Virus record (IMG/VR): IMGVR_UViG_3300034198_015569
Location: 1 to 64,000 of that record
Length of the DNA: 64,000 nucleotides
Strand: one strand, 5' to 3'
From: a virus
Of the stretch, positions 36,125-64,000 are shown piece by piece (position 1 is the first letter of the stretch; every line of letters begins with the position of its first letter). A model generated the notes under the pieces. The model was not told the origin of the DNA. It did no database searches and saw only the letters and a list, made by a program, of their open reading frames with translations. A program made the position numbers and the translations under genes.

Positions 36125-36217
36125 GGCTGCGGGTGTAGGACACGGGAGGTGCTTATAACACCTTATAGTCCGCAGATAACGGATTCCAACTAGGATCGAT
36201 ACCTAGCGCAGTCACCA
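36125..36217 (+). tRNA. tRNA-Ile(TAT), non-canonical (short D-arm, long variable arm)
   Basis: GGCTGCG/CGCAGTC acceptor, AGGTG-CTTATAA-CACCT, CTAGG-ATCGATA-CCTAG, CCA. Confidence 0.7.
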
Positions 36218-37243: not shown

Positions 37244-37318
37244 GCGGTTGTAGCTCAATGGTAGAGCAGGGCCTTCTAAACGCCATGGTAGTGGGTTCGA
37301 ATCCCACCTACCGCACCA
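37244..37318 (+). tRNA. tRNA with CTA anticodon (putative amber suppressor)
   Basis: Canonical D and T arms; best register GGGCC-TTCTAAA-CGCCA (3 central pairs); an Arg(TCT) register pairs worse. Confidence 0.6.
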
Positions 37319-57261: not shown

Positions 57262-57609
57262 ATGCAGAAGTTTAATACGCAGCGTCAGCTTTCCAATTAT
57301 AAGAATAAGCATACTCATGAAGTAAATATCAATGAGTTGCGGAATAATATTCTTTATACAATTGCTCTAGCTGATGTTGATACTCGTGAGAAGTATCTAG
57401 AATGGGTTGAGGCATGGAAGAAGACGAACGTTGATCTTGTGAAGCTGATCAAGGCTTATAAGAAGAAGCGTCAGAATCTTTCGAATGATTCGGCTTCTAC
57501 CGAAGGAATTCTTGCTGAAGCTCGCTATCTCGCACAGTCTTTTTATGCGCAGCGTTATCGTATGAAGATTATGTCAATTCTTAATCAGGCTGATGATTTG
57601 GAAGTTTGA
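57262..57609 (+). CDS. helical hypothetical protein (YL.WV..WK family), paralog B
   Basis: EKYLEWVEAWK...FYAQRYRMK; AAGGAG SD. Confidence 0.75.
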   Translation: MQKFNTQRQLSNYKNKHTHEVNINELRNNILYTIALADVDTREKYLEWVEAWKKTNVDLVKLIKAYKKKRQNLSNDSASTEGILAEARYLAQSFYAQRYRMKIMSILNQADDLEV

Positions 57610-58016
57610 ATATAAATAAATTAGGATATTTGTTGAGTTTATTAAATTTATCGTCGGTTTCACAGGGAACAGTAGGTCTTGGATTTGCAATTGCTCATTA
57701 TGTAGCAGAAGGCAAAATAGTTTCCATTCCATTAAACGACAATCAAGATTATGATTTAGTTGTTGAAGAAAATGGGAAACTTAAAAAAGTTCAAGTCAAA
57801 ACATCTCGTGTGAAAGAGAACGGTAATTTTAGAGTCGAAATACGAAAAATTCGATCAAATAAAACAATAAATAAAGTAATAGAATTTAATAATACAACTT
57901 GTGATATTGTATTTGTATATTGTGATGATGGAACAAAATATTCAATACCATCTGATAAAATACATACAAAAACTACAATTGTATTAAATCAAAAGTTTAA
58001 TGAATTTAAACTTTAA
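57606..58016 (+). CDS. PD-(D/E)XK endonuclease (group I intron-associated-like family)
   Basis: VSIPLND.QDYDLVVE...KKVQVKT. Confidence 0.78.
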   Translation: MNINKLGYLLSLLNLSSVSQGTVGLGFAIAHYVAEGKIVSIPLNDNQDYDLVVEENGKLKKVQVKTSRVKENGNFRVEIRKIRSNKTINKVIEFNNTTCDIVFVYCDDGTKYSIPSDKIHTKTTIVLNQKFNEFKL

Positions 58017-59100: not shown

Positions 59101-59490
59101 ATGAACGTTAATCAAAAAGGAGTTAAGGGTTTAATCAAAATTATAGACCATTTAACAGATAAAAGCTGGTATTGTTTTCCAGCTTTTGATGATCATTCTC
59201 CAGTTGACTTGATAATTATGAATGAAGCTGGTAAGCTTATGAAACTCCAGATAAAATATAGGAGTCGCATACAAAGGTTCGTATCAGAAAGATATGAACT
59301 ACAAGCATCTTCCGTTGTCAACGGAAAACGAGTAGATATCAACAGGATTTTAATAGATGGTTGGGGTGTGTATCTTGAGGAAGCACAAAAAGTAGTTTTC
59401 ATCCATAAAAATTATTTAATTAATAAAAAAAGTTTTATTATTAATCCTAATATAAATTACTTATCTTTGGAAGAATGGCCGAGTGGTTGA
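59101..59490 (+). CDS. PD-(D/E)XK endonuclease-like protein
   Basis: KG..G...F...DDHSPVDLI.....KLQIKY; 3' end runs into tRNA-Ser. Confidence 0.65.
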   Translation: MNVNQKGVKGLIKIIDHLTDKSWYCFPAFDDHSPVDLIIMNEAGKLMKLQIKYRSRIQRFVSERYELQASSVVNGKRVDINRILIDGWGVYLEEAQKVVFIHKNYLINKKSFIINPNINYLSLEEWPSG

Positions 59491-60593: not shown

Positions 60594-61052
60594 CTAACCA
60601 CAAAAAAAGGAAAAAATTCCTATACATTAAATATATGTTGGGGGAAAAATGTGTATTACGGAAATACCCACCAAATCAGAAAAGTTTGTAAAGGCACAAA
60701 TCATAAAGGCTGAAGAACTGGAAGATAGTTTGGACTCGGATGTTCCGGTGTATTTTGTAAATCCTCGATATAACAACACTGGCTTGTATATTTGTATCGG
60801 GGATAATGGAGAGTATGAAGTTTGGCGAGCAATTTTCTCGGAAGCAACCGAAGAAACTATAGAAGCAAATCTTATAGCTTCATTTCAAACCTTTACAGGA
60901 ATTCTCGAATCAGTCAATATGGAAATCAATCGTGGGTGGTTGTATTTCCATTAAATAATTAAAAGAGAAGATATAATAATCTTCTCTTTTAATGAAAAAT
61001 TGGATTTTGTATATAAATACACGTCCATGATTATAATTAAGTTAATTGAATT

Positions 61053-61100
61053 AGAACGATTTCAGCACTTAAACGCTTGGTATGCAAAAAAGTCGTTCTG
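61053..61100 (+). ncRNA. stem-RNA unit 1 (cargo: GC-TTGGTAT-GC mini-loop)
   Basis: AGAACGATTTCAGCA...AAGTCGTTCTG; late promoter TATAAATA at 61012. Confidence 0.65.
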
Positions 61101-61121
61101 TTAAACAAAAGGAATATTTAA

Positions 61122-62537
61122 ATGAATACTTTCGCACGTAATGTAGCATCAAACGTTGGTGCCTCTTCTCCTAAGATTGCTAAGACCCGCACTGAAAATG
61201 GTGCAGTTGCTTACACTTCATCCGGCAAGGCCAATCTTGATTTGTTTGCTGCAATTGGCGCAGCCCGCTCCCGTGATCTAACCAATGATTTCAAGGCGGC
61301 TCTTAATGAGAATCCTGAATTGGCAACACGTATCCTTCTATGGGCTCGTGATTGTCGTGGTGGTGCTGGTGAACGTTCAACCCCTCGCAAGCTTCTAGCT
61401 GTGCTTGAGACTGTAGACGTTGAACTAGCAGAGAAGGTGCTTCGTAAGCTACCAGAACTTGGCCGTTGGGATGACCTTCTAGATAGCGTTAAGACCCCTC
61501 GCCTTCGTGAGATTGGTTTCGGCCTAATCCGTGACGCTTTGGCGGCTGGTAACGGTCTGTGCGCAAAGTGGATGCCACGTAAGGGTGATGAGGCTATCCA
61601 GCTTCGTTCATTCCTTGGTTGGTCTCCTAAGCGTTACCGTAAGACCCTGGTTTCACTAACCAAGGTTGTAGAACAGCAAATGTCTGCTAAGCAGTGGAGT
61701 GAGATTAAGTATCAATCCGTTCCTTCTGTTGCCATGGCACGCTCGATGAAGGCTTTCAGCCGTAACGATACTGTTCGTTTTGGCGAATACTTAAATAGAG
61801 TAAAAAAGGGCGAAACAAAGATTAATGCCTCTGTGGTATTCCCACATGACATTATTCGCTCTCTAAAGAGCGGACAAACTGCCGGTGCGGATGCTCAATG
61901 GAATGCATTGCCTGATTTTGTTGCATCGGACGAAAACTTTCTTCCAATTTGTGACGTATCAGGATCAATGAGTGTAGCTGTATCGGGTACGGTTTCTGCA
62001 CTAGACGTTTGTCTTGGTCTTGGTCTGTATCTTTCAGAACGTGGTAAAGGTGCCTTTAAGGATATCTTTATGACTTTCTCTGCCCGCCCAACTCTTCAGA
62101 AGGTAAGTGGTTCACTAAGTGAACGTATGAACCAAATGAATCGTGGTGCTTGGGATATGAACACGGACATGGAAGCTGCATTTAATGCTGTACTAGATCA
62201 CGGTATTAAGTACAAAGTTCCGCAGGCAGATATGCCAACCACACTTATTGTCTTCTCCGATATGGAGTTTGATCAGTGTATTCGTAATGGAAATGATACC
62301 ATCTATCGCAATATGCGTAAGCGTTTTGCTGATGCTGGTTACAATGTTCCTAAGGTTGTGTTTTGGAATCTTAATTCCAGAAATAAGCAGTTCCCTGTAA
62401 CTGCAAAAGACCCAAACACTGCACTAGTGTCAGGCTTCAACCCAATTCTTGTTAAGAATCTTCTTGGCAAGGCGAATATCACTCCAGAACAAGTAATGCT
62501 TGACACTGTCATGGTAGAGCGTTATAATCTAGATTGA
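61122..62537 (+). CDS. Ro60/TROVE-like protein with C-terminal vWA (DUF2828-like)
   Basis: TENGAVAY..SG..LDLF, WARDCRGGAGER, GRWDDL, AKWMPR, Y.SVPSVAM, MIDAS DVSGSM, FSDMEFD, VVFWNL, LVSGF. Confidence 0.85.
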   Translation: MNTFARNVASNVGASSPKIAKTRTENGAVAYTSSGKANLDLFAAIGAARSRDLTNDFKAALNENPELATRILLWARDCRGGAGERSTPRKLLAVLETVDVELAEKVLRKLPELGRWDDLLDSVKTPRLREIGFGLIRDALAAGNGLCAKWMPRKGDEAIQLRSFLGWSPKRYRKTLVSLTKVVEQQMSAKQWSEIKYQSVPSVAMARSMKAFSRNDTVRFGEYLNRVKKGETKINASVVFPHDIIRSLKSGQTAGADAQWNALPDFVASDENFLPICDVSGSMSVAVSGTVSALDVCLGLGLYLSERGKGAFKDIFMTFSARPTLQKVSGSLSERMNQMNRGAWDMNTDMEAAFNAVLDHGIKYKVPQADMPTTLIVFSDMEFDQCIRNGNDTIYRNMRKRFADAGYNVPKVVFWNLNSRNKQFPVTAKDPNTALVSGFNPILVKNLLGKANITPEQVMLDTVMVERYNLD

Positions 62538-62538
62538 G

Positions 62539-62563
62539 AGTAGGGGATTCGTTCCCTACTTTC
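62539..62563 (+). terminator. hairpin after the Ro60-like gene
   Basis: AGTAGGGGA-TTCG-TTCCCTACT followed by TT. Confidence 0.65.
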
Positions 62564-62572
62564 CTTAAGTTT

Positions 62573-62632
62573 AGGGCAATTTCAGCAAACATTTTAAATT
62601 TTTCTTTGTACGAAAAACTAAAAGTTGCCCTG
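62573..62632 (+). ncRNA. stem-RNA unit 2 (cargo: anticodon-like stem-loop, TGT)
   Basis: AGGGCAATTTCAGCAA...TTTTTC-TTTGTAC-GAAAAA...AAGTTGCCCTG. Confidence 0.7.
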
Positions 62633-62638
62633 TAATTA

Positions 62639-62702
62639 AGAACAATTTCAGCAAGTATTTAATACTTTTCCGCCAACAATTGGAAAATAAAACGTTGTTC
62701 TG
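62639..62702 (+). ncRNA. stem-RNA unit 3 (cargo: permuted acceptor minihelix with GCCA)
   Basis: AGAACAATTTCAGCAA...TTTTCC-GCCA-ACAATT-GGAAAA...GTTGTTCTG. Confidence 0.65.
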
Positions 62703-62720
62703 TTAAAATAAAGGATTATT

Positions 62721-62975
62721 ATGAATTTAGATGATGTTACTGCTGGTAATATGCGAACACTTTCCGAAAGATCGCTTCTTACTTTAAAAGAGGATGAATT
62801 TAGGAAAATTCGAAATCTTATTCATAATGCGGCAAATTCTGGTGCATATTATATTCAATGTGATATAAAGTATCCAGAAACAGAGAATATGTTAAAAGAT
62901 TTAGGTTTTAAGTTTAAAATTATGACCTTTAATAAAGATGTTACCACGTATAAAATTACATGGTGGATTGATTAA
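62721..62975 (+). CDS. small hypothetical protein embedded in the RNA array
   Basis: 84 aa with AAGGA SD. Confidence 0.7.
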   Translation: MNLDDVTAGNMRTLSERSLLTLKEDEFRKIRNLIHNAANSGAYYIQCDIKYPETENMLKDLGFKFKIMTFNKDVTTYKITWWID

Positions 62976-62981
62976 GAATTG

Positions 62982-63105
62982 AGAACCATTTCAGCAAATT
63001 TACTTTTATTTGCCTACGAAGCAAAAGGTGTCGGTTCGAGCCCGGCCCACCACACCAACTATGTGGTGGTAGTTTAATTGGATAGAACTTTATAAGGTGG
63101 TTCTG
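62982..63105 (+). ncRNA. stem-RNA unit 4 carrying a circularly permuted tRNA-Arg(ACG)
   Basis: AGAACCATTTCAGCAA...anticodon arm, T-arm, 3' acceptor + ACCA, linker, 5' acceptor, D-arm...GTGGTTCTG. Confidence 0.8.
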
Positions 63106-63122
63106 ATAAAAGATTAGAATTA

Positions 63123-63178
63123 AGAACGATTTCAGCAACTTAAAAATTTCACTGTTAATGAAAACCAAAGTCGTTCTG
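63123..63178 (+). ncRNA. stem-RNA unit 5 (cargo: anticodon stem-loop, GTT)
   Basis: AGAACGATTTCAGCAA...TTTCA-CTGTTAA-TGAAA...AAGTCGTTCTG. Confidence 0.75.
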
Positions 63179-63187
63179 ATAAAATTT

Positions 63188-63297
63188 AGGATATTTTCAG
63201 CAATCTAAATTTCAAACAATGTAACATGGGTTCGAATCCCATACATTCGAAAGAATGTTAGCCAAGTGGTAAGGCAATTGTCAAAAAAGTTATCCTG
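63188..63297 (+). ncRNA. stem-RNA unit 6, YrlA-like tRNA mimic
   Basis: T-arm ATGGG-TTCGAAT-CCCAT, closed acceptor ACATTC-GAAA-GAATGT, D-arm GCC-AAGTGGTAA-GGC, all inside the AGGATA/TATCCT stem. Confidence 0.8.
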
Positions 63298-63425
63298 TTA
63301 AAATTATGGGCAAGACCCGAAATTCTTATGCGTCGGGAGATATTACAAGCGTGTTAATGGGGGCTATGTAATAATTAAATTTCCGGTTGACAAAAAATTA
63401 ACTTGGTGTATAAATAATAGAATAT

Positions 63426-63500
63426 TGCTGGCGGGAGGTTTAGAATCTCATTGGTCTCATAAACCAAAGAACTGGTGCAAATCCATGGCTTCAGCAACCA
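63426..63500 (+). tRNA. tRNA-Met(CAT), atypical
   Basis: TTGGT-CTCATAA-ACCAA; ends CAGCAACCA; T-arm irregular. Confidence 0.62.
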
Positions 63501-63506
63501 ATTTAA

Positions 63507-63592
63507 TGCGGGGACAAGCCGGAGTGGCTAACTAGCCTCATAAGCTAGAGATTAATTTCTAATGGAATGTGCAACTCATTCCCCCGCAACCA
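63507..63592 (+). tRNA. tRNA-Met(CAT), fMet-like acceptor, long variable arm
   Basis: TGCGGG.../CCCGCAACCA; CTAGC-CTCATAA-GCTAG; T-loop TGCAACT. Confidence 0.65.
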
Positions 63593-63763
63593 ACACGGTA
63601 AGGTTTACTATTCTTATCCCATATAATGGTGTGATATTAATGGGTAAATCATATTGACGGCGAGGGCAAAGATCAAAGCGGGAAACCGGCACATTCGTTG
63701 TTCTATTTGAGGATAGACTTTGTGGGGGCCAGTCAATAATTATTTTAAAAGGTTAAACATTGA

Positions 63764-64000
63764 GTGTTTTGTTTAAATTGTAATAAAGAAACAAAGAATC
63801 CAAAATATTGTTGTAGATCATGTTCTGTATCTAAAAATAATTTAGGCGTACAAAGAAATAAACCAGTTGACAAAATATGTTTAAACTGTAGTAATAAAGT
63901 AAAACGAAATAAATCGAAATTTTGTTCTATGGAATGTTCCTTAAATTATAAGGCTATAGAAAAGAGAAGAGAAGTTTTAAGTAATCTTGAAAATGGAAAA
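63764..64000 (+). CDS. partial Zn-ribbon protein, probable tRNA-adjacent endonuclease (runs off the window)
   Basis: GTG start; CLNC...YCCRSCS and CLNC...FCSMECS repeats like the N-terminus of 48808-49467. Confidence 0.55.
   Translation, partial: MFCLNCNKETKNPKYCCRSCSVSKNNLGVQRNKPVDKICLNCSNKVKRNKSKFCSMECSLNYKAIEKRREVLSNLENGK

What the first reader, a model, noticed from the sequence alone, without database searches (positions are those of the whole stretch)
61053..63297. Ro60/TROVE-like gene flanked by an array of modular stem RNAs carrying interchangeable tRNA parts
Seen: six units (61053, 62573, 62639, 62982, 63123, 63188) share a 5' arm AG(A/G)nnnnTTTCAGCA and a complementary 3' arm ending in CTG(T/A)TAA-like sequence. 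The stems covary (AGAACGAT/GTCGTTCT, AGGGCAAT/GTTGCCCT, AGAACAAT/GTTGTTCT, AGAACCAT/GTGGTTCT, AGGATA/TATCCT), indicating selection on RNA structure. Each encloses a different tRNA-derived cargo. Known: bacterial Ro60 (Rsr) binds Y RNAs encoded next to it, and YrlA RNAs are tRNA mimics. Inference: the constant stem plus CAGCA is the handle for this divergent DUF2828-type Ro60, and the cargos form a library of tRNA decoys or adaptors. They could act as baits for host anticodon nucleases or tether repair/decay enzymes. The shared motif differs from the classical Y RNA Ro-binding motif, and I do not know of a described multi-cargo array like this.
Basis: partly seen in the sequence, partly recalled or inferred. 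Interest (0 to 1): 0.93.

Follow-up and report, generated by a model that had tools for sequence, protein, structure and literature searches.

The report
Phage Ro60-like protein's partner RNAs
A large uncultured phage encodes a ring-shaped relative of the RNA-binding protein Ro60, flanked by seven small RNA genes that share one conserved "handle" and carry tRNA look-alike parts; the same pairing sits in very different phages and is probably an undescribed branch of the Ro60/Y-RNA particle.

Summary
Six units lie at the stated coordinates, and a seventh lies 2.4 kb past the window. Each has a covarying 7-8 bp closing stem, an unpaired UUUCAGCA(A) next to the 5' arm and a CUG(U/A) end. The 61122 protein has no TROVE sequence signature (Pfam DUF2828+DUF7788) but folds as full-length Ro60 (Z 21.6 to 1yvr).

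A covariance model of the handle found 132 of 132 matches on the gene's strand in 877 kb of homologous loci. It hit 66 of 80 IMG/VR loci, and also Felix O1-type, Listeria and mycobacterial phages. It hit 0 of 5 phage genomes that lack the gene.

Cargo varies. Unit 4 is a complete circularly permuted tRNA-Arg(ACG), units 6 and 7 are YrlA-like, and units 2 and 5 are anticodon-arm mimics. Units 1 and 3 are not clearly tRNA-like.

Rfam 15 and my ten literature searches hold no description of this family. A preprint shows that a Ro60-like protein of a Felix O1-type phage counters the Ppl defence. The handle also resembles Dictyostelium Class I RNAs.

Binding, expression and function are inferred, not shown. 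This scan has already reported the same system on other DNA.

The parts
61011..61018 (+). TATAAATA, a possible late promoter about 35 nt upstream of unit 1. The match to the T4-type late promoter is recalled knowledge, not tested.
   Evidence: Sequence. A second copy at 63408-63415 precedes two tRNA-like elements.
61052..61101 (+). Unit 1. Handle RNA with a minimal 22-nt cargo (loop UUGGUAU on a 2-bp stem). It ends 21 nt before the ATG of the Ro60-like gene, so it may also serve as a leader or operator.
   Evidence: R1 score 44.4 bits, E 2e-7. Fold -11.6 kcal/mol, z -2.17.
61122..62537 (+). Ro60-fold protein of 471 aa: helical-repeat ring plus a vWA domain with an intact MIDAS motif. Pfam DUF2828 + DUF7788; phrog_850.
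   Evidence: Pfam 9.6e-33 and 2.3e-50. phrog_850 2.8e-147. AF2 pLDDT 82.1. The Foldseek top 13 are all Ro60/TROVE. VIA-align Z 21.6, rmsd 3.8 A over 402 residues to 1yvr. D278, S280, S282, T348 and D380 are invariant in 29 sequences.
62500..62528 (+). Sigma-70 consensus promoter (TTGACA, 17 nt, TATAAT; 12 of 12) inside the 3' end of the gene. It could drive units 2-6.
   Evidence: Promoter-like sites as a class are not enriched in the region (18 found, 19.2 expected), so this is a lead only.
62536..62563 (+). G+C-rich hairpin just after the stop codon. It looks like a terminator or processing hairpin. A similar hairpin precedes unit 7.
   Evidence: terminator-like, 12 pairs; sequence.
62573..62633 (+). 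Unit 2. Handle RNA whose cargo is a 6-bp stem with the 7-nt loop UUUGUAC (anticodon-type, UGU).
   Evidence: R1 41.2 bits. RF01414 19.7 bits.
62639..62703 (+). Unit 3. Handle RNA whose cargo is two hairpins with 3-nt and 8-nt loops, not tRNA-like. It ends 18 nt before the ATG of an 84-aa ORF.
   Evidence: R1 53.3 bits.
62721..62975 (+). 84-aa ORF of unknown function between units 3 and 4. It is listed because it lies inside the array.
   Evidence: No Pfam or PHROGs match.
62982..63106 (+). Unit 4. Handle RNA carrying a complete circularly permuted tRNA-Arg(ACG). The 3' half (anticodon arm, variable loop, T arm, acceptor 3' strand, A73, CCA) is at 63009-63057. A 5-nt linker follows, then the 5' half (acceptor 5' strand, D arm) at 63063-63089. 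The handle joins at the tRNA 26/27 junction.
   Evidence: ARAGORN calls the in-silico un-permuted 76 nt tRNA-Arg(acg). Rfam YrlA 28.7 bits, E 0.0025, and tRNA 25.2 bits. Fold z -2.04.
63123..63179 (+). Unit 5. Handle RNA whose cargo is a 5-bp stem with the loop CUGUUAA (anticodon-type, GUU). This loop is identical to the loops of the phage's two tRNA-Asn genes.
   Evidence: R1 63.7 bits, E 3e-12. RF01414 24.3 bits. The MFE of the whole unit pairs the motif instead.
63187..63298 (+). Unit 6. YrlA-type handle RNA with a T arm (63226-63242), a 6-bp acceptor-like hairpin closed by GAAA (63243-63258) and a D arm (63261-63275).
   Evidence: Rfam YrlA 25.2 bits, E 0.026. Fold z -2.52 with these three hairpins.

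Best explanation
The 61122 gene encodes a Ro60-type RNA-binding ring of the DUF2828/DUF7788 family (phrog_850). The seven units are its cognate small RNAs, functional analogues of Y RNAs.

Each RNA has a constant protein-binding 'handle'. The handle is a 7-8 bp closing stem with an invariant G-C pair, an unpaired U-N-C-A-G-C-A-A next to the 5' arm, and a CUG(U/A) 3' end. Each RNA also has a variable, exposed cargo that mimics tRNA parts: anticodon arms (units 2, 5), the tRNA elbow plus acceptor stem (units 6, 7), or a whole permuted tRNA-Arg (unit 4).

Proposed working (inferred). The array is transcribed with the gene. One candidate promoter is the TATAAATA before unit 1, and another is the sigma-70 consensus before unit 2. 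The transcript is cut into RNAs of about 50-125 nt. RNase P probably cuts at the 7-bp acceptor stems of units 4 and 7, which encode N73-CCA, as happens to M. smegmatis YrlA. The ring holds the handle, and the cargo engages proteins that recognise tRNA.

My odds are as follows:
- About 0.9 that these are real structured RNAs linked to this gene family.
- About 0.7 that the protein binds the handle.
- About 0.25 that the cargos are decoys for host tRNA-cleaving defence nucleases.
- About 0.25 that the cargos are adaptors bringing tRNA repair or decay enzymes to the ring. An RNA ligase gene lies 3.8 kb past unit 7.

Units 1, 3 and 7 end 18-21 nt before ORF starts, so they may also act as leaders or operators.
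For: Protein. AF2 model pLDDT 82.1, pTM 0.81. The Foldseek top 13 PDB hits are all Ro60/TROVE, E 7e-9 to 1.5e-5 over about 500 columns. The VIA-align top 10 are all Ro60, Z 12.2-21.6, and the next rows are vWA-only at Z 9.9 or less. The MIDAS residues are invariant.

RNA.
- In 28 short units from 25 sources, 6 of 8 stem pairs change on both sides. 94.2% of cells pair against 65.7% in shuffles (0 of 500) and 34-48% when the partner is slid.
- In a motif-first test without stem selection, T-N-C-[AC]-G-C-A-A occurs 243 times on the gene strand and 115 times opposite. 152 of the 243 adjoin a stem of 7 bp or more, against 24 of the 115.

Linkage.
- Model R1 gave 132 of 132 matches (E<=1) on the gene strand in 876,933 bases.
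- 66 of 80 IMG/VR loci have a hit at E<0.01, and 51 of 104 hits lie within 200 nt upstream of the gene.
- There are also hits in Felixounavirus garuso, Listeria phage cka15 and Mycobacterium phage Lolly9.
- In whole records, 5 of 5 with the gene have hits, and 10 of 10 hits are on the gene strand. 0 of 5 without the gene (T4, T5, Bxz1, CcrColossus, G; 1.22 Mb) have any.
- In the window's own 88-kb contig nothing outside the array scores better than E 0.3.

Cargo.
- ARAGORN reads un-permuted unit 4 as tRNA-Arg(acg).
- YrlA is the top Rfam hit for units 4 and 6.
- 38 of 86 distinct units have a 7-nt loop on a stem of 4 bp or more with the Y-U-NNN-R signature, against 2.6 per shuffled set.

Precedent. 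Ro60 binds adjacent Y RNAs, and M. smegmatis YrlA is cut by RNase P and gains CCA (Chen 2014, PMC4201824, passages). Thermus phage phiLo Ro60 binds two upstream Yrl RNAs (PMC12135203, passages).
Against: - No experiment or RNA data here show transcription, processing or binding.
- In the PhageMaP preprint (PMC11482910, passages), the Ro60-like gp130 of the Felixounavirus Bas63 restored T7 plaquing on a Ppl host when expressed alone from a plasmid or from the T7 genome. The phage's own RNAs are therefore not needed for that phenotype. I did not verify that gp130 is the phrog_850 homologue; I infer it from its position upstream of the tRNA block.
- The Rfam YrlA scores (28.7 and 25.2 bits) are far below the gathering score of 69.
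- Units 1 and 3 have no clear tRNA-like cargo.
- 14 of 80 loci had no R1 hit at E<0.01.
- Some units lie far from the gene: 8.4-13.6 kb away in DLP_6 and about 168 kb away in one IMG/VR contig.
- Three of the seven units sit just upstream of ORFs, which would also suit a purely cis-acting role.
- The A2 units were picked with a stem requirement, so their percentage paired is partly by construction.
- The loci are related phages, so counts are not independent events.
Confidence: 0.72

Rival explanations
1. The units are purely cis-acting elements of the operon's mRNAs. They would be leaders, translational operators or RNase processing sites that set the ends and stability of neighbouring messages, and not free partner RNAs. 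If the Ro60-like protein binds them at all, it would do so only to regulate its own synthesis.
For: 51 of 104 R1 hits lie within 200 nt upstream of the gene. In this contig, units 1, 3 and 7 end 18-21 nt before the ATGs at 61122, 62721 and contig 65818, each with a ribosome-binding site. Unit 1 has almost no cargo.
Against: Units 2, 4, 5 and 6 are not followed by ORFs. In Felixounavirus the units sit between tRNA genes. Other units lie kilobases from the gene. Cargos include complete tRNA bodies with an encoded CCA and YrlA-type domains, which a leader would not need. The two readings do not exclude each other.
Confidence: 0.13
2. The handle is recognised by some other factor, such as a host RNase, a tRNA-processing enzyme or another phage protein. 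Its linkage to the DUF2828-type gene would then only reflect that both live in phage tRNA operons.
For: The gene and the units usually lie in or beside tRNA clusters. No binding data exist. gp130 works without phage RNAs in T7.
Against: T4 and T5 are tRNA-rich phages without the gene, and they have no R1 match at E<=0.1. Neither do three phages that the literature says carry canonical Ro60 homologues with Y-like RNAs (Bxz1 as a mycobacteriophage, CcrColossus and G). By contrast, 5 of 5 records with the gene have matches. The pairing persists across phages of Proteobacteria, Firmicutes and Actinobacteria. The control sample is small, at 5 against 5.
Confidence: 0.1
3. The units are decaying tRNA genes or repeated mobile cassettes (PeSL- or MITE-like) with no function of their own.
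For: The cargos hold tRNA fragments. A promoter plus hairpin (62500-62563) resembles promoter/stem-loop cassettes of T4-type phages (recalled).
Against: The handle motif and the closing G-C pair are invariant while the stems covary. All matches are strand-specific. The units are confined to one 4.7-kb region of the contig. The cargos are not recent copies of the phage's own tRNAs: best local scores are 8-21 against a null 95% of 11-15, and only unit 6 exceeds the null maximum.
Confidence: 0.03

Closest known systems
Ro60 (Rsr, TROVE+vWA) with Y RNAs. This covers bacterial and mycobacteriophage YrlA/YrlB (Rfam RF02553; Chen et al. 2014, PMC4201824, passages read) and Thermus phage phiLo Ro60 with Yrl1/Yrl2 (PMC12135203, passages read; PDB 9KOP, 9L5Y).
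   Same: The protein has the same fold of a helical ring plus a vWA domain. Several small RNAs are encoded beside the gene on its strand. The 5' and 3' ends pair into a closing stem next to a conserved unpaired motif. At least one RNA per locus has a tRNA-like domain in T arm, acceptor, D arm order. Some acceptor stems have 7 bp with CCA, like the RNase P-cleaved M. smegmatis YrlA.
   Different: The protein has no TROVE sequence signature: Pfam gives DUF2828/DUF7788, and a profile against PDB TROVE chains gives E 0.08. The motif is U-N-C-A-G-C-A-A, not GNCGAAN0-1G/CGAA. YrlA scores are 25-29 bits against a gathering score of 69. Many units are about 50-65 nt long and carry only an anticodon-arm-like hairpin. 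There are up to seven units per locus here. R1 finds nothing in Bxz1, CcrColossus or phage G.
Class I RNAs of dictyostelid social amoebae (Rfam RF01414; Kjellin et al. 2021, PMC7919456, passages read)
   Same: - Both are about 42-65 nt long and have a short closing stem with compensatory changes.
- Both start with AAG with an invariant G, and end with CUGU whose C pairs with that G.
- Both have a conserved unpaired motif next to the 5' arm (CCUUACAGCAA against UU(U/A)CAGCAA). C6, C9, A10 and A11 are invariant in both, and the interior is variable.
- RF01414's best matches in whole phage genomes fall on handle units. 7 of 8 matches with E<0.1 coincide with R1 hits, and a ninth (E 0.37) is a long unit by eye.
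   Different: All RF01414 scores (15.7-28.2 bits) are below the gathering score of 41.5. The same search at E<=10 also rings in 8 of 14 control genomes. The near-invariant U is at motif position 4 here (99%; position 3 is 54% U), against position 3 in Dictyostelia. The known Class I partner is the RRM protein Rnp1A. I did not show that dictyostelids have a DUF2828-type protein.
Bas63 gp130, a Ro60-like counter of the Ppl defence system (PhageMaP preprint, PMC11482910, passages read)
   Same: It is a Ro60-like protein of a Felixounavirus, encoded directly upstream of the tRNA block. This is the position of the phrog_850 homologue in Felixounavirus garuso, which is 40.5% identical to the window protein. 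The authors guessed that some neighbouring 'tRNAs' might be Y RNAs.
   Different: The preprint names no RNA partner. The handle units I find lie between the annotated tRNAs. gp130 alone sufficed in T7. I inferred, but did not check, that gp130 is the same gene.
Phage tRNAs that neutralise tRNA-cleaving defences, for example T5 tRNA variants against PARIS AriB (PMC12409363, abstract and passages read)
   Same: AriB's targets are tRNA-Lys(UUU), Thr(UGU), Asn(GUU) and Thr(CGU), with U36-A-A-U-C|A41. Among the 38 anticodon-type cargos, 16 carry these four anticodons (4.9% in shuffles) and 14 carry U36-A-A-U-C. In this window unit 5 is GUU and unit 2 is UGU.
   Different: The cargos are bare anticodon arms on a handle, not functional tRNAs. 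No cleavage or competition was tested. Window unit 2 lacks the U-A-A-U context.
Circularly permuted tRNA genes of the red alga Cyanidioschyzon merolae (recalled, not read here)
   Same: In unit 4 the 3' half precedes the 5' half and a short linker closes the acceptor stem.
   Different: The break is at the 26/27 junction and is occupied by the handle stem. I have no evidence that the RNA is circularised or matured into a working tRNA.

Membership tests
Ro60 / TROVE (Rsr) proteins | A ring of helical (HEAT-like) repeats followed by a vWA domain, aligned over the full length | tested here: met
   Foldseek top 13 are all Ro60, E 7e-9 to 1.5e-5. VIA-align Z 21.6, rmsd 3.8 A, 402 residues aligned, residues 18-453 against 1yvr. 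Model pLDDT 82.1.
Ro60 / TROVE (Rsr) proteins | TROVE sequence signature (Pfam TROVE, or significant sequence similarity to solved Ro60) | tested here: not met
   Pfam at E<=0.01 gives only DUF7788 and DUF2828. A profile of 29 sequences against PDB sequences gives phiLo TROVE at E 0.082 over 40 residues.
Ro60 / TROVE (Rsr) proteins | MIDAS motif (DxSxS...T...D; definition recalled) in the vWA domain | tested here: met
   D278, S280, S282, T348 and D380 are invariant in 29 sequences.
Ro60 / TROVE (Rsr) proteins | Binds Y RNA stems and misfolded RNA ends | not testable with these tools
   No RNA-protein tool and no RNA data were available.
YrlA Y RNA (Rfam RF02553) | The 5' and 3' ends pair into a stem, and the RNA is encoded near the Ro60 gene on the same strand | tested here: met
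YrlA Y RNA (Rfam RF02553) | tRNA-like domain in the order T arm, acceptor-like stem, D arm | tested here: met
   Met by units 4, 6 and 7. Not met by units 1, 2, 3 and 5.
YrlA Y RNA (Rfam RF02553) | Ro-binding motif GNCGAAN0-1G / CGAA in the 5' strand (Chen 2014; phiLo paper) | tested here: not met
   The conserved motif is U-N-C-A-G-C-A-A. In 84 anchored units, A is 99% and 93% at the last two positions and U is 99% two bases before the C.
YrlA Y RNA (Rfam RF02553) | Rfam gathering score (69 bits) | tested here: not met
   28.7 and 25.2 bits.
Dictyostelium Class I RNA (Rfam RF01414) | About 42-65 nt long, with a short closing stem showing compensatory changes and a variable interior | tested here: met
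   The short units are 50-65 nt. 6 of 8 stem pairs change on both sides.
Dictyostelium Class I RNA (Rfam RF01414) | Start AAG with an invariant G, and end CUGU whose C pairs with that G | tested here: met
   G is 100%, preceded by A in 74%, in 84 units. The G-C pair is invariant in 28 of 28. In this contig 5 of 7 units end CUGU and 2 of 7 end CUGA.
Dictyostelium Class I RNA (Rfam RF01414) | 11-nt motif CCUUACAGCAA next to the 5' arm, with T3, C6, C9, A10 and A11 nearly invariant | tested here: inconclusive
   C6, C9, A10 and A11 match. However, C6 and C9 were fixed by my anchoring. The invariant U is at position 4, not position 3.
Dictyostelium Class I RNA (Rfam RF01414) | Rfam gathering score (41.5 bits) | tested here: not met
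   24.3 and 19.7 bits in the window, and at most 28.2 bits elsewhere.
Dictyostelium Class I RNA (Rfam RF01414) | DUSE promoter about 60 nt upstream; occurrence in dictyostelids | not tested
   This is a eukaryotic promoter element and was not looked for in the phage.
Promoter/stem-loop cassettes of T4-type phages (PeSL; recalled) | An early promoter plus a stem-loop, repeated between genes across the genome | tested here: not met
   The units are confined to contig 61.0-65.8 kb. Only one consensus promoter was found.

The most novel reading that the evidence does not exclude
The handle RNAs and the DUF2828-type ring form an ancient ribonucleoprotein class shared by phages, bacteria and eukaryotes, and the long-unexplained Class I RNAs of dictyostelid amoebae are its eukaryotic members. 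Class I RNAs would then be Y-RNA-like partners of a Ro60-fold DUF2828-type protein, rather than a dictyostelid invention tied to multicellularity. In phages, the same scaffold would display tRNA parts as baits or adaptors in the conflict over tRNA cleavage.
Probability: 0.2. Interest if true: 0.9.

Novelty: new variant of a known kind. Interest (0 to 1): 0.8.

Why it matters
DUF2828/DUF7788 is a very large family without a known function. A profile of 29 sequences finds 8,656 cluster representatives at 50% identity. tblastn finds 711 of 50,697 phage records, among them Felix O1-type, P100-type Listeria, Campylobacter, Staphylococcus and mycobacterial phages. Homologues also occur in fungi.

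Giving this family a likely RNA partner with a defined, mutable handle makes it directly testable in model phages. It would extend the Ro60/Y-RNA principle to a second protein-RNA lineage. It also links that lineage to phage counter-defence, because the presumed Bas63 homologue defeats Ppl.

The modular cargos suggest a general way for phages to present tRNA surfaces. The cargos include bare anticodon arms enriched for the tRNAs that PARIS AriB cuts, tRNA elbows, and a complete permuted tRNA.

The resemblance to Class I RNAs offers a concrete hypothesis for RNAs that have lacked a mechanism since 2004.

Tried and rejected
Expression. The look-up of sequencing runs on window 60900-63400 listed 5 runs (4 hold the stretch or part of it), all on record as DNA, and no RNA holder was listed. 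I did not use read laying because DNA contigs cannot show an RNA.

Close relatives. None were available for per-unit covariation. The best phage record is 48% identical in protein and the best IMG/VR locus 49%. blastn of the region found only short pieces of the gene.

Reverse-complement control. I used it for the anticodon-loop signature but it was uninformative. The Y-U-NNN-R pattern is nearly self-complementary, giving 35 against 38. I rely on the shuffles instead.

Detection of long units. R1 was built from short units and detects long ones poorly: unit 4 scores 15.8 bits, unit 6 is not listed, and unit 7 scores 12.5-30.1 bits. I placed those units by eye and with my own scan.

Dictyostelid DUF2828-type protein.
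- The protein atlas gave only viral and bacterial clusters.
- The search for homologous proteins with 'longer' lengths gave 5 proteins, of which the 3 that carry names are fungal.
- A fungal query gave 750 proteins at E<=1e-5; every organism named among the 120 listed is a fungus, and many rows carry no name.
- Avesson et al. 2011, which lists the four Class I-associated proteins, is not held.

Bas63. I guessed an accession, but the record was Bas27. I did not pursue it, so the identity of gp130 with phrog_850 is an inference.

Literature for a description of the RNA family.
- 'DUF2828' found 5 papers, none relevant.
- 'YrlA' + 'phage' was searched.
- 'Ro60' + 'bacteriophage' + 'Y RNA' was searched.
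- 'Ro-like/Ro60-like/TROVE-like/Rsr-like' was searched.
- Pfam and InterPro accessions found 3 papers, none relevant.

Complex prediction was not used because it does not take RNA.

Full report
WHAT IS THERE.

The window is part of an 88,427-base viral contig. G+C is 36%, and CheckV completeness is given as 36. It carries 20 ARAGORN tRNA genes.

A seventh lies outside the window at contig 65671-65797.

Each unit has four parts:
- a 5' arm of 7-8 nt that begins (A)AG or UAG;
- the word UUUCAGCA(A/C);
- a variable interior, mostly ending in an A-rich run;
- the complementary 3' arm followed by G(U/A).

Five of the seven units end CUGU and two end CUGA.

The word TTTCAGCA occurs 11 times in the window against 4.56 expected. 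Six of those are clustered + strand copies. The closing stem is in the minimum-free-energy fold of 7 of 7 units, with z from -1.8 to -3.25.

THE PROTEIN.

ORF 61122-62537 (471 aa) matches Pfam DUF7788 (2.3e-50) and DUF2828 (9.6e-33), but no TROVE model at E<=0.01. It also matches phrog_850 'RNA-binding protein' at 2.8e-147.

By sequence, a 29-member profile barely touches the solved phage TROVE protein (E 0.082). By fold it is a full-length Ro60:
- The AlphaFold2 model has pLDDT 82.1.
- The 13 best Foldseek matches in the PDB are all Ro60 or TROVE proteins.
- VIA-align gives Z 21.6, rmsd 3.8 A over 402 residues to Xenopus Ro60. The ten best rows are all Ro60, and vWA-only proteins begin at Z 9.9.
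- The vWA MIDAS residues are invariant in the family alignment.

The family is large. It has 711 of 50,697 phage records by tblastn and 8,656 representatives at 50% identity. It also has fungal members of 800-1,000 aa.

THE HANDLE IS A CONSERVED RNA ELEMENT TIED TO THIS GENE.

No close relative of the phage is available; the best is 49% protein identity. I therefore compared 80 IMG/VR loci that encode homologues.

A simple descriptor (motif with at most one mismatch, an adjacent stem of 7 bp or more, and a G after it) found 55 sites on the gene strand and 18 on the other.

I aligned 28 short units from the window and 21 loci. On that alignment:
- 6 of 8 stem pairs show changes on both sides.
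- The second pair is G-C in 28 of 28.
- 94.2% of cells pair, against 65.7% in shuffles (0 of 500 reach it) and 34-48% when the partner is slid.

These units were chosen with a stem requirement, so I also ran a motif-first test. T-N-C-[AC]-G-C-A-A occurs 243 times on the gene strand and 115 times opposite. Of these, 152 of 243 against 24 of 115 adjoin a stem of 7 bp or more.

A covariance model of the short units (R1) gave 132 matches at E<=1 in 876,933 bases, all 132 on the gene strand. The list counts the window's four short units twice, because L004 overlaps the window, and it includes near-identical loci.

I then took the 104 hits at E<0.01, leaving out the L004 duplicates:
- 72 lie upstream of the gene, 51 of them within 200 nt.
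- 29 lie downstream.
- 3 overlap my tblastn gene limits.
- 66 of 80 loci have at least one hit, and 14 have none.

With filters off, R1 also finds units beside the gene in three named phages, all on the gene strand:
- Felixounavirus garuso has three units between tRNA genes.
- Listeria phage cka15 has two units upstream.
- Mycobacterium phage Lolly9 has two units downstream.

Stenotrophomonas phage DLP_6 has a short unit just upstream that R1 scores only at E 0.98.

In five whole records that carry the gene, 10 of 10 matches at E<=0.01 are on the gene strand. Six lie within 1 kb of the gene, three lie 8.4-13.6 kb away, and one lies about 168 kb away.

Five phage genomes in which the protein profile finds no homologue have no R1 match at E<=0.1 in 1.22 Mb. 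They are T4, T5, Bxz1, CcrColossus and G. The literature says that mycobacteriophages, CcrColossus and phage G carry canonical Ro60 homologues and Y-like RNAs.

In the window's own contig, nothing outside the array scores better than E 0.3.

THE CARGOS.

Unit 4 holds every part of a tRNA in permuted order. After I joined its two halves in silico, ARAGORN calls a 76-nt tRNA-Arg(acg) with a 7-bp acceptor stem, A73 and an encoded CCA. The handle is attached at the 26/27 junction.

Units 6 and 7 have the YrlA order of T arm, acceptor hairpin and D arm. Unit 7 again has a 7-bp acceptor stem followed by N73-CCA and a 2-nt linker.

Rfam's YrlA model is the best hit for units 4 and 6, but far below threshold: 28.7 and 25.2 bits against 69.

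Unit 5 carries a 5-bp stem with the loop CUGUUAA. That loop is identical to the loops of the phage's two tRNA-Asn genes. Unit 2 carries a 6-bp stem with UUUGUAC, matching 6 of 7 bases of the phage tRNA-Thr(UGU) loop. The stems are unrelated, and overall the cargos are not recent copies of the phage's tRNAs. Units 1 and 3 are not tRNA-like.

Across the family, 38 of 86 distinct units have an anticodon-type loop (7 nt, Y-U-NNN-R, stem of 4 bp or more, T loops excluded), against 2.6 per shuffled set. Of these 38:
- 16 carry the anticodons UGU, UUU, GUU or CGU (13 of 264 in shuffles);
- 14 carry U36-A-A-U-C.

These are the tRNAs and the sequence context that the PARIS nuclease AriB cuts (PMC12409363, abstract and passages). 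The loci are related, so these are not independent counts.

Other family members carry a whole tRNA body, in D, anticodon, T order, with the handle in place of the acceptor stem.

CONTEXT.

- A TATAAATA lies 35 nt before unit 1.
- A perfect sigma-70 consensus (62500-62528) and a hairpin lie between the gene's end and unit 2.
- An HNH endonuclease ORF and a methyltransferase-like ORF separate units 6 and 7.
- Downstream come an NMNAT-Nudix protein, a NAMPT and an RNA ligase at contig 69575-70759.
- In the Listeria phage an annotated tRNA-splicing ligase lies 1.3 kb downstream.

HOW IT MOST LIKELY WORKS.

Shown:
- a Ro60-fold protein;
- a conserved, covarying, strand-specific RNA handle that co-occurs with its gene;
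- tRNA-like cargos.

Inferred:
- The RNAs are cut out of operon transcripts.
- The ring binds the handle.
- The cargos present tRNA surfaces to other proteins.

Precedents come from passages read. Ro60 binds adjacent Y RNAs. YrlA mimics tRNA, and in M. smegmatis it is cut by RNase P and gains CCA. phiLo Ro60 binds two upstream Yrl RNAs and host PNPase.

The only functional datum for this protein type is the PhageMaP preprint. The Ro60-like gp130 of Felixounavirus Bas63 is encoded just upstream of the tRNA block, counters the Ppl defence system, and does so even when expressed alone with T7. That argues for a counter-defence role. It also shows that the phage RNAs are not required for that phenotype. 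I infer, but did not check, that gp130 is the phrog_850 homologue. The gene-tRNA-unit block of garuso is conserved over 80% or more of its length in 245 records, including Felix O1.

COMPARISON WITH WHAT IS KNOWN.

The system works like a Ro60/Y-RNA particle but fails two membership tests for YrlA: the binding motif and the Rfam score. The protein fails the TROVE sequence test while meeting the fold test.

The handle resembles dictyostelid Class I RNAs in length, closing stem with compensatory changes, AAG start, CUGU end whose C pairs with an invariant G, and the adjoining motif. Rfam's Class I model picks the handle units as its best matches in whole phage genomes. All its scores are below threshold, however, and the invariant U is shifted by one position. 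Kjellin et al. state that they found no Class I RNAs outside Dictyostelia.

I found no Rfam family and no paper describing this RNA family.

EARLIER NOTES OF THIS SCAN.

After I had reached this reading, look-ups showed that the scan has reported the same protein-RNA pairing on many other genomes. The notes include the Class I resemblance, permuted tRNA cargos and anticodon-loop mimics. One note adds that a social amoeba has the protein. I could confirm only fungal homologues.

VERDICT.

It is a new variant of a known kind, the Ro60/Y-RNA particle, with high interest.

Noticed in passing
window 63426-63499 and 63508-63594: Two tRNA-like sequences with CAU anticodon-type loops lie just after a second TATAAATA (63408-63415). 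ARAGORN does not call them. The second folds as a cloverleaf with a long variable arm and an odd T loop (z -1.98). The first scores 18.4 bits with Rfam tRNA and ends in ...CUUCAGCAACCA.
   Followed up: partly
window 37244-37318: A tRNA with anticodon CUA, which ARAGORN labels 'tRNA-Pyl'. It is a possible amber-suppressor tRNA in the phage's tRNA cluster.
   Followed up: no
window 36125-36217: The tRNA-Ile(UAU) call is 93 nt long, which is unusually long. It may hold an intron or an insertion.
   Followed up: no
L043 3846-4062 (IMGVR_UViG_3300047160_000980): A 217-nt match to bacterial RNase P RNA class A, covering model positions 1-367 with large deletions, lies about 1 kb upstream of the DUF2828-type gene. 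It scores 67.2 bits (E 2.7e-18) but is below the gathering score of 100. This may be a miniature phage-encoded RNase P RNA beside the tRNA-like units.
   Followed up: no
L004 6134-10759 (contig 66134-70759, beyond the window): A run of likely counter-defence and repair genes follows unit 7: NMN adenylyltransferase-Nudix, NAMPT (NAD salvage) and an RNA ligase with a PHA02142 OB domain.
   Followed up: partly
window 63764-64000, continuing to contig 64258, and contig 64378-64950: An HNH endonuclease ORF and a methyltransferase-like ORF sit between units 6 and 7. They may be an insertion that split the RNA array.
   Followed up: no
window 57606-58016 and 59101-59490: Two PD-(D/E)XK_5 endonuclease-like ORFs are interleaved with tRNA-Val and tRNA-Ser just upstream of the locus.
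   Followed up: no
proteins P0151-P0273: Fungi (Fusarium, Trichoderma, Tolypocladium and others) encode proteins of 800-1,000 aa with the same DUF2828+DUF7788 architecture. They are about 30% identical to the phage protein over 47-65% of it. Whether they have handle-type RNAs is unknown.
   Followed up: no
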